From the NCBI GenBank assembly GCA_965205975.1, contig OZ242195.1, positions 4,544,001 to 4,608,000 on the forward strand: a stretch of DNA of 64,000 nt, given 5' to 3'. This stretch comes from Candidatus Latescibacterota bacterium. GTDB taxonomy: Bacteria > Latescibacterota > UBA2968. Shown in pieces: positions 4 to 59,299 of this stretch. Each line of letters starts with the position of its first letter. The first letter of the stretch is position 1. The notes beneath the pieces are model-generated. The model worked only from the letters and a program-made list of their open reading frames with translations. It was not told where the DNA came from and ran no database searches. The translations under genes were made by a program, and so were the position numbers.

Positions 4-1911
4 TTGGGGCTTCTGATTTCTTGTCTGGCGAGTGCATGGGTGACGTATTCCCGCACGGCTGCAAATACTTCCGCAGTTAATATTACGCATCTTCCGGTTT
101 CCATTTTTGCGATTTTTTTGTGCGTTTTTATTGTCAATACACTTCTGAAGATTCGGTTCGACAGGCAGGGTCTGGCTTCTCGAGAATTAGCTGTTATTTT
201 CGCGATGGGGCTGATTGGTGCGATTATTCCCGCGCGTGGGTTGACCGGTGTCTGGCTGGGGCTGATGGCCGCGCCTTATTATCTGGCTACGCCGGAGAAT
301 GGGTGGATTGACAATGTTCAGCCCTTTCTTCCGCCTTATCTCTTTCCTTCCAATGATCACCAGCAGACGACGTTTTTGTACGAGGGGCTACCATCTGGGG
401 TGCCCATTCCGTGGGAGGTGTGGGTCGGGCCGATTTTCTGGTGGATTACGCTGATTTTGGCCGGGTTTGTGGTGTGTTTCTGCCTGGTGGTTATTCTTCG
501 CAAGCAATGGGTTGAGAGCGAGCGCCTGGATTATCCTTTGCTCGCGCCTATTCTCGAGATGGTTGCGGAGACGCGCGATTCTTTGGGACGAAGCGGCTGG
601 CCGGTCCTTTTTCGGGGGTATCTCTTCTGGATTGGTTTTGGGCTGGCGTTTGGGATTATCGGGTGGAATATTATTACTTATTTTTATACGACGGTGCCCC
701 GCATTAGCATGAGTCCTAATGGCGGGCTTTTTTATTTTGCACGCCTTTTTCCGCCGTTGCTGACTCATATTAATACTTATACGATTGGCTTTGGATATTT
801 TGTGAATCTGGAAATTCTTTTTTCGATCTGGTTTTTCCACTTTTTGTTGATGGGCGAGATTGCGCTTATCCGGAAGACGGGCTTTCAGTTTGGGCGCATG
901 CACCAGAAGGGCGGCGGATGGGGAGATCCCCTGGTGCAGTGGCAGTGTATGGGCGCGCTTTTTGTGTTTGTGGCATGGGGACTCTGGACTGCGCGGCGGC
1001 ACTTGAAGGCGGTTTTCAGGAAGGCGTGGCATAATGATCCCGATGTGGATGATGCGGATGAGCTTCTTTCTTACCGCACGGCTGTGAGTGGCTTGGTTGT
1101 CGGCGTTGCCTATATCATAGCCTATCTTTTGAAGGCGGGGGTCGCGCCGGGGCTTTTGATGATTACGATACCGGCGGCGATTGTTATTTATATTGCGCTT
1201 GCCCGTTTTGTGTGCGAGTCGGGTACGCTGTACCTGGGTATTCCCACGACGCCTCTGGATATGGGTTTTCAACTGATCGGTACGGTTACGATTGATCCGA
1301 GGACGATTGCCGTGGGTTCTACGGCTCACGCGTTGCGCTGGATGCTGTTTATGCCGGCGCTGTCGCAGAATGCCAAAGTTTTTGACCGCGTGCCGGGCAA
1401 TAAGCGCGCGCTTTTTTGGGTGTTGCTTTTGGGGTTGGGCGGTGCGCTGGTGGTCAATATTTCGATGGTGCTCTATCTGGGCTATACACACGGGGCGTAC
1501 AATTTTACGGAGTATCCGTTTACCCGGTACGCGCCCCGGCTGTACGACGCGATTGTCACGAAGATCAAATCGCCCGAGCCGGCTTCATGGGAGCGGATGG
1601 TGCTGTTCGGCTTTGGAGGCTTCATTTTTGCGATTCTCACGGCGCTTCGGTACCGCCTGCCCTGGTGGCCCATCCATCCCGTGGGTTTTATTATTACGAC
1701 GACGAGTATTCTCCACGAGATTACATCTCTTATTATTGTCTGGCTGTTCAAAGCTATCGTTATCCGGGTGGGCGGTGTGTCTCTTTATGAAAAATACCGC
1801 CCGCTCTTTTTCGGGATTATTGCGGGCAGGGCGACAGGGGTGCTGGTTTCGTTTGTCGTGGATTTGATCTGGTTCCCCGGGGGTGGGCACGGGGTACACG
1901 GTTGGGCGTGA
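4..1911 (+). CDS. Polytopic membrane protein, DUF6785/DUF6784-type (putative transporter); 5' end may lie outside the window
   Basis: 635-aa ORF with many TM helices. Motifs ILRKQWVESERLDYPL, WWPIHPVGF and GGVSLYEKYRPLFFG are typical of this family as I recall it. Confidence 0.7.
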   Translation: MGLLISCLASAWVTYSRTAANTSAVNITHLPVSIFAIFLCVFIVNTLLKIRFDRQGLASRELAVIFAMGLIGAIIPARGLTGVWLGLMAAPYYLATPENGWIDNVQPFLPPYLFPSNDHQQTTFLYEGLPSGVPIPWEVWVGPIFWWITLILAGFVVCFCLVVILRKQWVESERLDYPLLAPILEMVAETRDSLGRSGWPVLFRGYLFWIGFGLAFGIIGWNIITYFYTTVPRISMSPNGGLFYFARLFPPLLTHINTYTIGFGYFVNLEILFSIWFFHFLLMGEIALIRKTGFQFGRMHQKGGGWGDPLVQWQCMGALFVFVAWGLWTARRHLKAVFRKAWHNDPDVDDADELLSYRTAVSGLVVGVAYIIAYLLKAGVAPGLLMITIPAAIVIYIALARFVCESGTLYLGIPTTPLDMGFQLIGTVTIDPRTIAVGSTAHALRWMLFMPALSQNAKVFDRVPGNKRALFWVLLLGLGGALVVNISMVLYLGYTHGAYNFTEYPFTRYAPRLYDAIVTKIKSPEPASWERMVLFGFGGFIFAILTALRYRLPWWPIHPVGFIITTTSILHEITSLIIVWLFKAIVIRVGGVSLYEKYRPLFFGIIAGRATGVLVSFVVDLIWFPGGGHGVHGWA

Positions 1912-56027: not shown

Positions 56028-58748
56028 ATGCGTTTCGGATATTTCTTTCTTCTGCTCTGTCTTCTGCCAATGCACGCGCTGGCAAGTTCGTCGCCCTACC
56101 AAAAGGTCGCCGATGTTTCGCTTGCAGGGTCGCTTTCTCTCCAGCACTATCGCCTCTCCAATGGTCTTCAGGTTGCGATTGTAGAAGACGATACCCGACC
56201 CGTTGTGACGTGCCAAATCGCCTATCGCGTGGGGTCTTCTCACGAAGCACCTGGTCGGCAGGGCATGGCGCATCTGGTTGAGCACCTCGTGGTGGTTCGC
56301 TCATTTCCAGAGTCGTTCTACCTTTTGGACGCGCCACATAGCAATGCTGGTACGTCGAAAGATGGTACGAGATACTACGCCACGGTTCCCAAAGCACAGC
56401 TGGATGCGCTGATCGCCAGTTTTGCTTGGGGTATGACACAGTTTGATGTTTCTCAGAAAGAATTCGATCTCGAAAAAGAGGTCGTTCTGGGTGAATGGGC
56501 GCGCAGTGCCAACAGTGCGCGTCGGCTTTTGTATAAAAAGTTATATGCCCGCATGTTTGCAGGACATCCCTATCGGTACGATATTTTGGGCCATCGTGAT
56601 ACGATTAAAACTTTTACTCTGGATCAAGCGACCGCATTTCACAAGCGTCATTACGTGCCAAACAATGCCTGTCTTGTAATTGTCGGCGATGTGAAAGAGG
56701 ATGATATTTTGCCCGTTGTGATTCAACATTTTGGAAGGATTCCGAAGGACGAGGGGTTTATTCCAGACGATGTTGATACGCTGGATGTCGCATCTGTACC
56801 CCAGGATTCCCTGCAATCTACAACTGATCTGCATTCTTCTGTTTGGGGTGTCTGGCATGTTCCAACGGATACACATCCAGACTCCTATCCTTTGTATTTG
56901 TTTGATAAAGCTCTTTTTGATGGTGAATATTCTCTTGCACGCCAAAGGCTAATTGGCCCGGGAAAGGTTCTCGGGGTGAATTCCTATTTTCTCAATATGC
57001 GCGATAAAGATCTGTTTTATTATATAGCTGACTTACCTTCGGGTACGCGTTATGAACCTGTGGTTTCGGCCATGCGACAAATTATTCAAGTAGCTATTGA
57101 TTTTTTTTCTGAAGAACGTCTTTTAGTGGCGAAAAACGAAGCGCGTAAGAGTTTATATCGCATGATAACCAGTCAGTTCCGTCTGGCAAATGTGATCTCT
57201 TTTGGATTCATTCGCACCAACGACCCTGCTTTTGATCTCAAGTGGATGCAGAATCTCGATGGCGTTACGGTGACCGATGTCAAGCGGGTGGCGAAGCAAT
57301 ATCTTTTAGATCAGCCGCCCCACACCTTTGTCCTGTACACGTCTCCAAAGCGAGCACCATCGCGGCGCGTATGGCTTTATGTGGGTGTTGTGTGGATTCT
57401 CGTGGGACTGGGAGGATACTGGTACTGGCGACGGCGAGCACTTGCGGTTGGATTATTTGCAGTCCTTTGCAATATTTCGGCGGCAGAGGCAGAAATCCCC
57501 AATCACAAGATATATTACGTGCAGGATACGCGCGTGCCGCAAACACGGCTTTCAATGAGGTATTATACAGGAGGAGATCTGCAGGAGACAATGGATACGC
57601 GCGGTTTGTCCTTTGCGTTTTTTCGCCTGAATGATCTGGCATTACACGGGGAAGATAAAAAGGAGATGGATCGGCTTGGCGCAGAGTTCTGGTTCAATAT
57701 TTCTGATCGATACGTCACCGTTAATCTGACTGTGTTTAGTGAAAATTTGGATGCAGCCTTAAAACGCCTGAAAGCGATGATGGAAGATCTCAGATTCTCT
57801 GAAGAATTGCTGGACAGAGAACGGGCGCGGATTATAGACGATTTTGAGGATTATGTTGATGATCATGAGGTGGCAGGAATTTTTTGTTATCATTTATACC
57901 AGGGCGAGTACCGGCGAGAGGGCTCGCGCACAGCACTTGAAAATTTGACAGCGCAAGACTTGCAACAATTTTGGGATCAGACCCTGCGCGCAAAAGTTCT
58001 CTTTTTTAGAGTGACTTCCGATCTGAGTAAATCGGAAATTGAACGCAGTTTGCACGTGATGACGGATGACCGACCTCGGGATGGTTTTTCGCCACTTCCT
58101 CGGCCAAAACGCAAAGAGATCAGGGGTTTGCACGCTTTAATTTCCCCAAGTACCCATCTGGCTAATTTTTCTTATTGGATAACCAATGGCTTGCCCCGCA
58201 CAAATGAGGATTGGTTTGCACAAGCGGTTTTGGTCAATGCGCTAAATCGCCTGTTGTTCGTTCGGCTTCGCGACCAGAAGGGCTGGTGTTATTCGGTTGG
58301 TGCGAGTATTCAGGAATGGACATCGCCACCAGTGCTGTATTTTTGGGCTGATCCTCGAGATGTTAATACTTCTAAGCTGATTCCCGAGATGTTTCGGTTG
58401 ATTTACCATTGTTTATCCGAGCCAGAGTTTTGGACAGAAGTGAAGAAAGGTCGCGAACGGCTCAAACGGGCGTATCATTTGCAACTCGGTCCGCAGACCA
58501 GGCTCAATCAGCAGGTGCGCTATGACCGCGATGGGGTGCCCGCTCTTTCTCTGGAGGAATACGAATCAGCTATAGATCGGGTGACGGAAGAAGATATTCG
58601 CCGCGTTTTCAGGCGACTGTTGAACTATCAGGTCAAAAATTTTTTGATGCTTATTTACGGGGATGCCGATCACGTTAAAGACGCATTGAGACGGGGGGAT
58701 ATCATGGGCAGAACAACGGTTTTTAATATTCAAACGCTGATTGAGTAA
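56028..58748 (+). CDS. M16 (pitrilysin/insulinase) zinc peptidase, two halves joined by a membrane segment
   Basis: Signal peptide, LSNGLQV, VGSSHE, HxxEH motif (HLVEH), NAGTSKDGT, YVPNNA. The second half has no HxxEH. Confidence 0.88.
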   Translation: MRFGYFFLLLCLLPMHALASSSPYQKVADVSLAGSLSLQHYRLSNGLQVAIVEDDTRPVVTCQIAYRVGSSHEAPGRQGMAHLVEHLVVVRSFPESFYLLDAPHSNAGTSKDGTRYYATVPKAQLDALIASFAWGMTQFDVSQKEFDLEKEVVLGEWARSANSARRLLYKKLYARMFAGHPYRYDILGHRDTIKTFTLDQATAFHKRHYVPNNACLVIVGDVKEDDILPVVIQHFGRIPKDEGFIPDDVDTLDVASVPQDSLQSTTDLHSSVWGVWHVPTDTHPDSYPLYLFDKALFDGEYSLARQRLIGPGKVLGVNSYFLNMRDKDLFYYIADLPSGTRYEPVVSAMRQIIQVAIDFFSEERLLVAKNEARKSLYRMITSQFRLANVISFGFIRTNDPAFDLKWMQNLDGVTVTDVKRVAKQYLLDQPPHTFVLYTSPKRAPSRRVWLYVGVVWILVGLGGYWYWRRRALAVGLFAVLCNISAAEAEIPNHKIYYVQDTRVPQTRLSMRYYTGGDLQETMDTRGLSFAFFRLNDLALHGEDKKEMDRLGAEFWFNISDRYVTVNLTVFSENLDAALKRLKAMMEDLRFSEELLDRERARIIDDFEDYVDDHEVAGIFCYHLYQGEYRREGSRTALENLTAQDLQQFWDQTLRAKVLFFRVTSDLSKSEIERSLHVMTDDRPRDGFSPLPRPKRKEIRGLHALISPSTHLANFSYWITNGLPRTNEDWFAQAVLVNALNRLLFVRLRDQKGWCYSVGASIQEWTSPPVLYFWADPRDVNTSKLIPEMFRLIYHCLSEPEFWTEVKKGRERLKRAYHLQLGPQTRLNQQVRYDRDGVPALSLEEYESAIDRVTEEDIRRVFRRLLNYQVKNFLMLIYGDADHVKDALRRGDIMGRTTVFNIQTLIE

Positions 58749-58766
58749 TAATTTTCGTTTATACTC

Positions 58767-58795
58767 TTGACGTTATTTTTGAAGTTGGGTATGTT
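58767..58795 (+). promoter_or_regulatory. Sigma70-type promoter of candidate sRNA-1
   Basis: TTGACG-17-TATGTT. Confidence 0.6.
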
Positions 58796-58801
58796 TTATG
58801 C

Positions 58802-58877
58802 ACTGCGGGTTGCTGCGGTATTTCTGTTTATTTCCTCCCTCCCGATAAATAGAGTGCTGTTGGCAGCCCGCTTTTTT
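58802..58877 (+). ncRNA. Candidate sRNA-1: single long hairpin with anti-SD-like loop UUCCUCCCUCCCG
   Basis: Three stacked helices rich in G-U pairs, which fixes the plus strand. 13-nt loop at 58832-58844, U6 tail and its own promoter. Confidence 0.55.
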
Positions 58878-58878
58878 A

Positions 58879-58907
58879 TTGACAGGGTTATTTTTGGAAT
58901 TTATTTT
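58879..58907 (+). promoter_or_regulatory. Sigma70-type promoter of candidate sRNA-2
   Basis: TTGACA-17-TATTTT starting 1 nt after the sRNA-1 T-tract. Confidence 0.6.
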
Positions 58908-58913
58908 GCTTTT

Positions 58914-58970
58914 GTAGCAGAAGTGCAAAGCTTTTGAGGGTGTCGGGAGGGAGCCCTCAAAGGCTTTTTT
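58914..58970 (+). ncRNA. Candidate sRNA-2: hairpin with loop UGUCGGGAGGGAG
   Basis: 14-bp stem (58927-58940 / 58954-58967), U-tail and its own promoter. The loop is complementary to the sRNA-1 loop. Confidence 0.5.
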
Positions 58971-58980
58971 ATTTTATAAA

Positions 58981-59180
58981 TAAAAAAGAGGCGCTGGTTG
59001 GGAGGGTATAACCAACGCCTCAAGGGATGTTGCATGGTACCGGATTAGACGCATTTGTACAGAAAAGAGTTCCAAGAAAGAGTAACGGCGTTGACTCAGC
59101 CGGGGTATAGGAGTCAACGCCGATATTTTTGCGACACGCTTTGTCGCATATTCTTTTACTTTTAAGGGCTGGAAAGGTTC
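58981..59180 (-). ncRNA. Candidate minus-strand RNA-3 with three hairpins (two displaying UAUACCC); 5' end uncertain
   Basis: Stems at 59130-59148, 59086-59122 (perfect 12 bp) and 58988-59021 (G-U on minus strand, followed by U6). Confidence 0.4.
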
Positions 59181-59299
59181 CCGAATGGTGTGATTTTTTG
59201 TGCGTTCAAGCAAATGACTGTGTACTTTTATCTTCTGGTATTCCGGTATATATTGTTGTGTTCTTAAAAAGATGTGATCACTGTGGGTATGGAGAATAC

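What the first reader, a model, noticed from the sequence alone, without database searches (positions are those of the whole stretch)
58767..58975. Tandem pair of promoter-bearing hairpin RNAs with perfectly complementary loops (candidate sRNA and dedicated sponge)
Seen: two back-to-back units, each with -35/17/-10, hairpin and U-tract, and no ORF. Unit 1 (TTGACG/TATGTT) folds into a ~26-bp G-U-rich hairpin with loop UUCCUCCCUCCCG. Unit 2 (TTGACA/TATTTT) starts 1 nt after unit 1 ends and has loop UGUCGGGAGGGAG. CTCCCTCCCGA (58835-58845) is the exact reverse complement of TCGGGAGGGAG (58943-58953), 11 bp, while the stems are unrelated, so this is not a simple inverted duplication. Known: anti-SD C-rich loops are used by alphaproteobacterial cuckoo RNAs and S. 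aureus RNAIII/RsaE, and sRNA sponges exist. Inference: an anti-SD regulator with an adjacent SD-mimic decoy interacting by kissing loops, an all-RNA switch or RNA-RNA toxin-antitoxin-like module that I cannot assign to any family I know.
Basis: partly seen in the sequence, partly recalled or inferred. Interest (0 to 1): 0.88.

Follow-up and report, generated by a model that had tools for sequence, protein, structure and literature searches.

The report
Paired small RNAs with complementary loops
Two tiny non-coding RNA genes sit back to back in an uncultured Latescibacterota bacterium, one exposing a C-rich loop and the other its exact G-rich complement, and their conservation suggests a regulator RNA and its built-in RNA antagonist in a phylum where no regulatory RNAs are known.

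Summary
Each unit has a sigma-70-type promoter, a hairpin and a U-tract, and the loops are 11-nt reverse complements.

Both units are conserved, single-copy RNA genes. They occur in 21 of 21 genomes of the genus, in 4 genomes of three other genera, and on one metagenome contig.
- Promoter geometry: P1 in 26 of 26, P2 in 25 of 26.
- Stems covary: 15 of 24 and 5 of 12 pairs show compensatory changes.
- G·U-versus-C·A counts place both on the + strand.
- Loop cores UCCCUCCC and GGGAGGGA are almost invariant.

Rfam has no family for them, they are not repeats, and the genome has no Hfq or CsrA.

New here: a convergent minus-strand RNA (about 59150 to 58982) and a distant paralogue of unit 1 also expose CCCUCCC in terminator loops. 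Unit 2 is the only clean G-rich-loop hairpin in the genome.

Best reading: C-rich-loop, anti-SD-type regulators with a dedicated G-rich antagonist, working like RoxS/RsaE with RosA/RsaI but unrelated and far more compact. Pairing and transcription remain inferred. Both loops are invariant, so no compensatory test was possible, and RNA-library contigs cannot show transcript ends.

The scan has noted C-rich-loop sRNA candidates in other genomes, but not this RNA.

The parts
58767..58795 (+). Promoter P1 of unit 1: TTGACG, 17 nt, TATGTT
   Evidence: Found by the promoter scan. TTGACN-17-TAnnnT sits upstream of the hairpin in 26 of 26 homologues, while the spacer sequence diverges outside the genus.
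58802..58878 (+). Unit 1 RNA, predicted about 75 nt. Hairpin 58805-58871 (27 pairs, 8 G·U), apical loop 58833-58843 UCCUCCCUCCC, U-tract 58872-58877. The start is inferred from the -10 position.
   Evidence: Fold z -5.9 on +, about 0 on -. In 26 sequences, 97.7% of cells pair, 15 of 24 pairs have compensatory changes, and 0 of 500 shuffles reach this. Non-Watson-Crick cells: 18 G·U on + against 0 on -.
58879..58907 (+). Promoter P2 of unit 2: TTGACA, 17 nt, TATTTT. It abuts the U-tract of unit 1.
   Evidence: Found by the promoter scan. Present in 25 of 26 unit-1 loci; absent only in G134, which lacks unit 2.
58914..58972 (+). Unit 2 RNA, predicted about 57 nt. Conserved stem 58930-58941 with 58953-58964, loop 58942-58952 GUCGGGAGGGA, U-tract 58965-58970.
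   Evidence: Fold z -3.8. In 26 sequences, 97.1% of cells pair and 5 of 12 pairs have compensatory changes. G·U cells: 15 on + against 2 on -. The T-run is on the + strand only.
58835..58845 (+). CUCCCUCCCGA, the C-rich pairing face of unit 1
   Evidence: Exact reverse complement of 58943-58953. The UCCCUCCC core is found in 27 of 27 unit-1 copies.
58943..58953 (+). UCGGGAGGGAG, the G-rich pairing face of unit 2
   Evidence: The CGGGAGGGA core is found in 25 of 26 copies; G024 has GGGAGAGA. The isolated loop-loop duplex is -26.3 kcal/mol.
58982..59152 (-). Convergent minus-strand RNA candidate ('sRNA-3'). Terminator hairpin 59021..58988 with loop AUACCCUCCC, U-tract from 58987..58982, second hairpin 59121..59087 with loop CUAUACCCCGGCU, third hairpin 59147..59131. 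The 5' end is inferred.
   Evidence: 59085-59150 is invariant in 16 genomes. All 14 non-Watson-Crick cells of hairpin 3 and both of hairpin 4 are G·U on the minus strand and mismatches on +. Fold z -6.2 on minus. CCCUCCC is kept in 19 of 19 copies seen.
59154..59181 (-). Possible ECF-type promoter of sRNA-3: GGAAC (59181..59177), 17 nt, GTAAAA (59159..59154)
   Evidence: Both motifs lie in invariant columns of A4. Assigning them to a sigma type is my inference and is untested.

Best explanation
Units 1 and 2 are two separate small-RNA genes. Each is transcribed from its own sigma-70-type promoter and ends at its own intrinsic terminator.

Unit 1 is little more than a long G·U-rich hairpin. It presents UCCCUCCCG in an 11-nt apical loop above a weak A-U upper stem. 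It most likely acts in trans, without Hfq, by pairing this anti-Shine-Dalgarno-like loop with G-rich ribosome-binding sites to block translation. This is how the C-rich RNAs of Firmicutes and the alphaproteobacterial cuckoo RNAs work.

Unit 2 presents the exact complement (CGGGAGGGA) in its loop. It most likely acts as the antagonist: it captures unit 1 by loop-loop kissing that can spread into the A-U upper stem, neutralising it and perhaps exposing it to nucleases. The same G-rich loop also matches the CCCUCCC terminator loops of the convergent minus-strand RNA next door and of the unit-1 paralogue. Unit 2 may therefore buffer a small family of C-rich RNAs.

Shown:
- Gene-like anatomy, strand, structure and conservation.
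- Uniqueness in the genome.
- Complementarity.

Inferred:
- Transcription and transcript ends.
- Pairing between the two RNAs.
- Which RNA is the regulator and which the sponge.
- The mRNA targets.
For: Conservation
- The locus is found in 20 of 20 other genomes of the genus.
- Covariance models find unit 1 in three further genera with unit 2 beside it (G024; G122 and G119; G036) and in a fourth genus without it (G134). Both units also lie on one metagenome contig, L113.

Promoters
- P1 is present in 26 of 26 loci and P2 in 25 of 26, with a 17-nt spacing throughout, bar one P2 read at 18 nt by the pattern used.

Structure
- Unit 1: 97.7% of cells paired, 15 of 24 pairs with compensatory changes, 0 of 500 shuffles as high.
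- Unit 2: 97.1% of cells paired, 5 of 12 pairs with compensatory changes.

Strand
- G·U cells: 18 against 0 for unit 1, 15 against 2 for unit 2.

Loops
- UCCCUCCC is kept in 27 of 27 unit-1 copies and CGGGAGGGA in 25 of 26 unit-2 copies.
- At least 10 contiguous Watson-Crick pairs are possible in 24 of 26 pairs. This is my reading.
- The conserved match includes the CCCG/CGGG end, which is not part of the 16S tail CACCUCCUUU.

Linkage
- Every unit-2 match that stands up (23 genomes, plus G004, G036 and L113) lies directly downstream of unit 1.
- Unit 1 exists without unit 2, in G134 and as the paralogue.

Uniqueness
- None of the hairpins is repeated in the genome.
- Only 4 of 399 CCCTCCC sites sit in a strong hairpin loop followed by a T-run. 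Three of these are unit 1, its paralogue and hairpin 3. Unit 2 is the only clean G-rich counterpart.

Energetics
- The isolated loop duplex is -26.3 kcal/mol, against -9.5 for a consensus SD.
- It is at least as good as the best of 10,691 candidate start-codon windows, -26.1.

Host context
- Shine-Dalgarno sequences are used in this genome.
- No Hfq or CsrA gene is found in the 98%-complete genome.
Against: - Both loop cores are invariant, so there is no compensatory change between loops.
- The two informative changes are uncompensated. G024 unit 2 reads GGGAGAGA while its unit 1 keeps CCUCCCUCCCG. G001 unit 1 reads CCCA against CGGG.
- The flanking position that pairs in most species (C-G) changes to C in four species, because it covaries within unit 2's own stem. 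Intramolecular constraints therefore dominate there.
- Complementarity could be a by-product of one loop mimicking the anti-SD and the other the SD.
- No clear enrichment of perfect target sites at ribosome-binding sites was seen. There were 12 other 11-mer sites genome-wide, about the chance number, and few lie at starts.
- Transcription is not shown. The RNA-library evidence consists of contigs from relatives. Contigs cannot give starts, ends or strand, may include DNA, and were chosen because they hold this stretch.
- Full 11-bp pairing between two 11-nt loops is sterically limited. The isolated-duplex energy overstates what a kissing complex can form.
Confidence: 0.5

Rival explanations
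1. Both are real small RNAs with separate jobs. Unit 1 mimics the 16S anti-SD and binds mRNA ribosome-binding sites. Unit 2 mimics an SD and binds something else, such as the 16S 3' tail or C-rich sites in mRNAs. Their mutual complementarity is only a by-product of SD/anti-SD mimicry.
For: - CCUCC and GGAGG lie inside the two loops, the 16S tail is canonical, and SDs are used.
- The invariance of each loop is explained without any mutual pairing.
- The loop changes in G024 and G001 are uncompensated.
Against: - The conserved match is longer than an SD/anti-SD core and includes CCCG/CGGG plus, in most species, the flanking A-U.
- Unit 2 with the 16S tail gives only -14.0 kcal/mol, against -26.3 with unit 1.
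- Unit 2 is never found apart from unit 1.
Confidence: 0.22
2. The hairpins are protein-binding decoys: a G-rich GGA loop for a CsrA-like protein, and a C-rich loop for a poly(C)-binding protein. On this view they are not base-pairing RNAs.
For: - GGA motifs in a hairpin loop resemble CsrA sites (recalled knowledge).
- The invariant loop sequence, and the invariant upper stem of unit 1, suggest sequence-specific recognition.
Against: - There is no CsrA (PF02599) match in the 98%-complete genome, while the control genomes ring.
- Each RNA has a single hairpin, whereas known protein sponges carry many sites.
- The exact complementarity of neighbouring loops is left unexplained.
Confidence: 0.1
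3. Nothing more than gene punctuation. Hairpin 1 is the M16 terminator, hairpin 2 is one half of a convergent terminator pair, and the promoter-like hexamers are chance or serve neighbouring genes.
For: - Hairpin 1 is the first terminator after the M16 stop codon at 58748, so it may also end that mRNA.
- M16 lies upstream again in G119.
- The promoter scan finds 4 sites against 2.5 expected in the region.
Against: - Terminator loops are not normally conserved. Here the loops are the most conserved part across three families of genomes while the stems drift.
- Both promoters keep their hexamers and 17-nt spacing in 26 of 26 and 25 of 26 loci.
- The module occurs without M16 in G036, G134 and G122.
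- What follows unit 2 varies: sRNA-3, a sigma-factor gene or a membrane-protein gene.
Confidence: 0.04
4. The unit 2 hairpin is really read on the minus strand. There it shows CUCCCUCCCGA and would be a third C-rich loop of the minus-strand RNA, giving an RsaE-like multi-loop RNA. In that case no G-rich RNA exists.
For: - The minus-strand fold of 58915-59035 is stable, z -7.2.
- The only Rfam near-hit is RsaE on the minus strand at 58927-59023: 19.4 bits, E 1.3, gathering score 79.
Against: - G·U cells favour + by 15 to 2.
- The U-tract follows the hairpin only on +.
- Hairpin 3 has its own U-tract upstream of it on the minus strand.
- P2 is conserved on +.
- In 5 genomes a sigma-factor gene separates the two hairpins, and in the other genera unit 2 occurs without sRNA-3.
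Confidence: 0.04
5. An RNA-RNA or type I toxin-antitoxin-like module.
For: Convergent or adjacent small RNAs with complementary loops recall the par/Fst layout (recalled knowledge).
Against: - No conserved small ORF. The mechanical ORFs lose their frame among relatives.
- The 79-aa minus-strand ORF has no Pfam match.
- A 26-codon ORF in sRNA-3 lacks an SD, and its start is missing in G017.
Confidence: 0.02

Closest known systems
RoxS/RsaE and FsrA (C-rich sRNAs of Bacillales) with their G-rich sponge RNAs RosA (B. subtilis) and RsaI (S. aureus)
   Same: - C-rich unpaired regions on the regulator pair with ribosome-binding sites.
- A stand-alone sRNA with G-rich single-stranded regions binds those C-rich regions and neutralises the regulator.
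- G-C pairs are critical for the interaction.
- One sponge serves several C-rich sRNAs.
- The system works without Hfq.

Source: PMC8216469, passages read.
   Different: - No homology: Rfam RsaE scores 19.4 bits against a gathering score of 79, and on the wrong strand.
- The phylum is different.
- Each RNA here is a single hairpin of about 57-75 nt, against 115-229 nt multi-domain RNAs.
- The complementary faces are both apical loops, giving kissing geometry.
- The two genes are adjacent, with the terminator of one abutting the -35 box of the other. RosA and RoxS are unlinked genes.
Cuckoo RNA family (CcsR/RSs0680, SmelC397 and others) of Alphaproteobacteria
   Same: - Hairpins have highly variable, covarying stems and one conserved anti-SD-like loop motif.
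- Members occur in small clusters.

Source: PMC4615179, passages read.
   Different: - Cuckoo RNAs have 2-4 adjacent hairpins per transcript, each with CCUCCUCCC. Here there is one hairpin per transcript with CCUCCCUCCC.
- No G-rich partner RNA is described for cuckoo RNAs in the passages I read.
- No Rfam model matched.
Kissing-loop antisense pairs of plasmids (CopA/CopT, ColE1 RNA I/RNA II). Recalled, not checked in a call.
   Same: Recognition starts between complementary hairpin loops and can spread into the stems.
   Different: Those pairs are cis-encoded on opposite strands of the same DNA and are complementary throughout. Here the genes are side by side on the same strand and only the loops match.

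Membership tests
RsaE/RoxS (Rfam RF01820) | Match to the family covariance model at or above the gathering score of 79 bits | tested here: not met
   No hit at gathering threshold in the whole window. In E-value mode the best hit is 19.4 bits, E 1.3, on the minus strand at 58927-59023.
RsaE/RoxS (Rfam RF01820) | Several C-rich (CCCC) unpaired regions in one RNA of about 100-115 nt | tested here: not met
   Unit 1 has a single hairpin with one C-rich loop. The minus-strand sRNA-3 has two C-rich loops but no model match.
Cuckoo RNA family | 2 to 4 adjacent hairpins in one RNA, each loop carrying CCUCCUCCC (PMC4615179) | tested here: not met
   There is one hairpin per promoter-terminator unit. 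The loop motif is CCUCCCUCCC. No Rfam family reached threshold.
G-rich sponge sRNAs (RosA, RsaI/RsaOG) | Single-stranded G-rich regions complementary to the C-rich regions of partner sRNAs | tested here: met
   The GUCGGGAGGGA loop is complementary to unit 1 (11 nt), to hairpin 3 of sRNA-3 (7-11 nt depending on species) and to the paralogue loop (7 nt). This shows a functional resemblance only.
G-rich sponge sRNAs (RosA, RsaI/RsaOG) | Sequence or structure homology to the described RNAs | tested here: not met
   No Rfam match to any family up to E 10 on the + strand over unit 2, apart from noise: Teg23 20 bits of 166, mir-651, wcaG. I did not check whether RosA itself is in Rfam.
G-rich sponge sRNAs (RosA, RsaI/RsaOG) | Demonstrated binding to, and destabilisation of, the partner sRNA | not testable with these tools
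   This needs EMSA or in vivo half-life measurements.
Intrinsic (Rho-independent) terminator | GC-rich hairpin directly followed by a U-tract on the transcribed strand | tested here: met
   Both units and hairpin 3 (minus strand) meet this. The simple terminator scan lists only sub-hairpins, because the loops exceed its 8-nt limit.
REP / palindromic intergenic repeats (reported elsewhere in this genome, earlier finding e1-1114884) | Many near-identical copies across the genome | tested here: not met
   blastn-short of each hairpin against the whole genome finds only the locus itself plus 13-16-nt chance words. The covariance models find one paralogue for unit 1 and none for unit 2.
CsrB/RsmZ-type protein sponge | A cognate CsrA/RsmA protein encoded in the genome, and many GGA hairpins per RNA | tested here: not met
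   PF02599 has no match in the own genome (98.3% complete) while the controls ring. There is one hairpin only.
Type I toxin-antitoxin | A conserved small toxin ORF on one of the RNAs | tested here: not met
   No frame is conserved across the alignments. There is no Pfam match for the 79-aa ORF.

The most novel reading that the evidence does not exclude
A self-contained all-RNA control node. One minimal G-rich 'anti-sRNA' (unit 2) titrates three C-rich-loop regulators: unit 1, the convergent sRNA-3 and the unit-1 paralogue. These regulators are driven by different promoter types, sigma-70-like for unit 1 and possibly ECF-like for the other two. Several stress inputs would thus be integrated on one pool of G-rich ribosome-binding sites. 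This would be the first riboregulatory network in Latescibacterota, working without Hfq or CsrA. The terminator-abuts-promoter tandem arrangement would couple the synthesis of regulator and antagonist.
Probability: 0.3. Interest if true: 0.75.

Novelty: new variant of a known kind. Interest (0 to 1): 0.6.

Why it matters
- **First candidates in the phylum.** A full-text search for 'Latescibacter' with 'small RNA' found 2 papers, neither about bacterial sRNAs as far as their titles and abstract starts show (listing only). These would be the first well-supported candidates there.
- **Independent origin of a known logic.** The C-rich regulator plus G-rich sponge logic is known from Firmicutes. 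If this reading is right, it arose independently in the FCB group, in a stripped-down form of two single hairpins with fully complementary loops.
- **Testable without culturing.** The RNAs are small enough for direct structural and kinetic study of sRNA-sponge recognition. The pairing can be tested in vitro even though the organism is uncultured.

Tried and rejected
- **Rfam.** No family reached threshold in the whole window. In E-value mode there was only noise.
- **Metagenome scan for the loop pattern.** 17 loci were returned and 16 were chance pattern matches. Only L113 is a true homologue.
- **Phylum-wide tally for unit 1.** The tally of 46 of 151 genomes is inflated. The short 40-60-nt hits are generic GCGGGC...GCCCGC-U terminators, as seen in 5 of 5 examined. 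I count as true homologues only the full-length hits that carry the loop motif.
- **RNA libraries.**
  - 11 RNA-library runs hold part of the stretch.
  - Contigs of 4 runs from 4 studies were laid. They are mostly 90-95% alike, a few near-identical, so mainly relatives.
  - They cover units 1 and 2 and the right half. In run X3 only 58746-58957 and 59032-59201 are covered.
  - The runs were chosen for holding this stretch. Contigs show no starts, ends or strand, and DNA may be present. I therefore draw no conclusion on expression or on uncovered parts.
- **Whole-molecule duplexfold and cofold of the two RNAs.** Uninformative, because these methods cannot represent loop-loop kissing. Cofold returned the two monomer folds (-60.2 against -60.2).
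- **Perfect-complement target search and duplex scan of 10,691 candidate start windows.** No convincing regulon emerged. The starts were crude, taken from ORFs without a gene finder.
- **CsrA and Hfq.** No match for either in this genome.
- **Sigma-factor gene as a conserved partner.** It lies next to unit 2 in only 5 of 21 genomes of the genus and is absent near the distant homologues.
Full report
**Observation**

- Unit 1: TTGACG at 58767, a 17-nt spacer, TATGTT ending at 58795, a hairpin at 58805-58871 and six T at 58872-58877.
- Unit 2: TTGACA begins at 58879, a 17-nt spacer, TATTTT ending at 58907, a stem at 58930-58941 with 58953-58964, and six T at 58965-58970.
- CTCCCTCCCGA (58835-58845) and TCGGGAGGGAG (58943-58953) are exact reverse complements. 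Each lies in the apical loop of its hairpin.

The promoter scan lists both promoters. Unit 1 folds at -33.8 kcal/mol with z -5.9 on the + strand and z about 0 on the minus strand. Unit 2 folds with z -3.8. Mechanical ORFs of 56 and 51 aa overlap the region, but indels among relatives break their frames.

**Organism and setting**

- The window is part of a single-contig, 5.56-Mb genome with 50.8% G+C.
- Its near relatives are records titled Candidatus Latescibacterota MAGs.
- Upstream lies a 906-aa M16 peptidase gene ending at 58748. Downstream, from 59300, lies a sodium:sulfate/DASS-type symporter gene.
- The genome uses Shine-Dalgarno sequences. GGAG-type words peak at -12 to -9 before crude long-ORF starts, in 1772 of 4064.
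- The 16S 3' end is the canonical GGAUCACCUCCUUUCU.
- No Hfq or CsrA match was found, while control genomes did match.

**Conservation and structure**

- The region is found in 20 of 20 other genomes of the genus.
- In the 21-genome alignment both -35 and -10 hexamers and both loops are invariant or nearly so, while the stems vary.
- RNAalifold recovers both hairpins, with 7 pairs showing compensatory change.
- Covariance models built from the two units find unit 1 outside the genus in G024, G122, G119, G036 and G134 (E 4e-13 to 6e-8).
- Unit 2 sits directly downstream in G024, G122 and G119 (about 42-43 bits) and more weakly in G036 (23.6 bits with filters off). G134 has unit 1 but no unit 2.
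- A metagenome scan added one further true pair, L113.
- Unit 1, on 26 sequences: 97.7% of cells pair, 15 of 24 pairs have compensatory changes, and none of 500 column shuffles reaches this. Slid controls give 40-56% paired.
- Unit 2, on 26 sequences: 97.1% of cells pair and 5 of 12 pairs have compensatory changes.
- P1 (TTGACN-17-TAnnnT) is present in 26 of 26 loci. P2 is present in 25 of 26, missing only where unit 2 is missing.
- Outside the genus the spacers differ while the hexamers and spacing persist. This is what real promoters look like.

**Strand**

Cells that are not Watson-Crick are G·U on one strand and C·A on the other, so they indicate the strand that is read.
- Unit 1: 18 G·U on + and 0 on the minus strand.
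- Unit 2: 15 on + and 2 on the minus strand.
- The U-tracts follow the hairpins only on +.

The rival that hairpin 2 is read on the minus strand is therefore unlikely. Its only support is a sub-threshold RsaE hit.

**Not a terminator only, not a repeat, not a known family**

- M16 lies upstream again in G119, but not in the loci of G036, G134 or G122. The module therefore moves independently of that gene, although hairpin 1 may also end the M16 mRNA here.
I tested that lead. Each hairpin of this locus is unique in the genome.
- Rfam has no match at gathering threshold in the whole window and only noise in E-value mode.

**More C-rich loops**

The unit 1 model finds one paralogue in the own genome.
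- It lies at G000:C1:1350920-1351005, outside the window, and scores 35 bits.
- It is a similar long G·U-rich hairpin with loop CCCCUCCC. Its U-tract is again directly followed by TTGACA.
- It is found at full length in 19 of the 20 genus genomes (own included) in the phylum scan.
- In the 13 genomes aligned its loop core is invariant.
- It has no G-rich partner.

Within the window, the 300 nt beyond unit 2 are even more conserved than the units. Positions 59085-59150 are invariant in 16 genomes.
- Hairpin 3 (58988-59021) and hairpin 4 (59087-59121) are read on the minus strand. 14 of 14 and 2 of 2 non-Watson-Crick cells are G·U there.
- Hairpin 3 is followed on the minus strand by a U-tract, with fold z -6.2.
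- This defines a convergent RNA candidate of about 170 nt with two C-rich loops, CUAUACCCCGGCU and AUACCCUCCC.
- The hairpin 3 loop keeps CCCUCCC in 19 of 19 copies seen. In 7 of them it reads UCCCUCCCGA, the same word as in unit 1.
- It was not found in the G018 loci. G002 was not examined.

A genome-wide scan for these motifs in the apical loop of a strong hairpin followed by a T-run gave 4 of 399 CCCTCCC sites. These are unit 1, its paralogue, hairpin 3 and one marginal case. Unit 2 is the only clean G-rich counterpart. Two of the three C-rich loops and the single G-rich loop thus lie within 200 nt of each other.

**Complementarity across species**

This is my reading of the alignments.
- UCCCUCCC is present in 27 of 27 unit-1 copies.
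- CGGGAGGGA is present in 25 of 26 unit-2 copies.
- At least 10 contiguous Watson-Crick pairs are possible in 24 of 26 pairs, and 11 in 18 of them.
- Three divergent species of the genus (G017, G011, G018) lose the C-G pair at one end, because that G covaries inside unit 2's own stem. They gain a U-A pair at the other end and so keep 11 pairs. A fourth (G001) has the same unit 2 but is one of the two exceptions below.
- Exceptions: G001 has unit 1 CCCA, leaving an 8-nt core. G024 has unit 2 GGGAGAGA, giving 6+3 pairs around an A·C mismatch. Neither change is compensated.
- The conserved match does extend beyond an SD/anti-SD core, into CCCG/CGGG and usually the flanking A-U.
- The isolated loop duplex is -26.3 kcal/mol. 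This compares with -14.0 for unit 2 with the 16S tail and -9.5 for unit 1 with a consensus SD. It is at least as good as the best of 10,691 crude start-codon windows, -26.1.
- These energies ignore the steric limits of loop-loop pairing.

**Expression**

- Eleven RNA-library runs hold part of the stretch.
- Contigs of four runs from four studies, mostly from relatives 90-95% alike, cover units 1 and 2 and the right half.
- The runs were selected for holding this stretch. Contigs give no ends or strand, and DNA may be present.
- I record only that related sequence is present in RNA libraries. Transcription is not shown.

**Comparison with what is known**

The closest working analogues are the C-rich sRNAs RoxS/RsaE and FsrA with their G-rich sponge RNAs RosA and RsaI.
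- There, G-rich single-stranded regions bind the C-rich regions, G-C pairs are essential, and one sponge serves several regulators (PMC8216469, passages).
- The cuckoo RNAs share the pattern of variable stems with a fixed anti-SD-like loop. However, they have 2-4 hairpins per RNA and the motif CCUCCUCCC (PMC4615179, passages).
- Membership in either family fails on the model score and on architecture.

What is new here:
- The phylum.
- The reduction of each RNA to one hairpin.
- The loop-to-loop geometry.
- The tandem gene arrangement, in which the U-tract of unit 1 abuts the -35 box of unit 2.
- The cluster of two C-rich RNAs around the single G-rich one.

A full-text search for 'Latescibacter' with 'small RNA' gave 2 papers. 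Judged from the listing alone, neither is on bacterial sRNAs.

**Verdict**

- That these are two real, independently promoted, structured small-RNA genes I hold at about 0.9.
- That their loops pair functionally, as regulator and antagonist, I hold at about 0.5.
- The main rival is that the complementarity is a by-product of SD and anti-SD mimicry.
- The toxin-antitoxin idea has no support.

Noticed in passing
window 58982-59181, minus strand: A convergent small-RNA candidate of about 170 nt. It has three hairpins, and two of them have C-rich loops (CUAUACCCCGGCU and AUACCCUCCC). Positions 59085-59150 are invariant in 16 genomes. Upstream on the minus strand, invariant GGAAC and GTAAAA motifs lie 17 nt apart and could be an ECF-type promoter. 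No Rfam match.
   Followed up: partly
G000:C1:1350920-1351005 (outside the window; locus L050 1501-1586): A paralogue of unit 1.
- It is a long G·U-rich hairpin with loop CCCCUCCC and a U-tract.
- It is preceded by an invariant GGGAAC-N16-CGTTTAT, which is ECF-like (my inference).
- It is followed by two invariant TTGACA-17 promoters and a gene starting MNAFDYESPQ.
- It is aligned and well conserved in 13 genomes of the genus, and found at full length in 19 of the 20 scanned.
   Followed up: partly
L013 1791-2965 (G014); also G002, G013, G020, G005: In 5 of 21 genomes of the genus, a sigma-70-family gene (regions 1.2, 2 and 4) and a 58-codon ORF sit between unit 2 and hairpin 3. In G014 alone the conserved WWIRQS codon TCG reads TAG, splitting the gene. 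The window's genome has only 45-51% identical paralogues elsewhere. RNA-library contigs of runs X2 and X4 carry this insertion junction.
   Followed up: partly
window 58872-58884, and the same place in all homologues: The terminator U-tract of unit 1 is followed within 1-3 nt by the -35 box TTGACA of the next promoter. This holds in 25 of 26 loci and also at the paralogue. The T-tract may act as an UP-like element, or the layout may couple termination and initiation.
   Followed up: no
window 58781-58795: The spacer of P1 keeps AGTTGGG directly before the -10 box, both in the genus and in G134 and G122 (GTTGGGTA). The rest of the spacer diverges. This may be a regulator site or an extended -10 element.
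   Followed up: no
L080 (G134) 1501-1589, minus strand: In this genus unit 1 is present without unit 2. Its U-tract is followed at once by GAAGGAGGTG, an SD-like sequence that is itself complementary to the loop.
   Followed up: no
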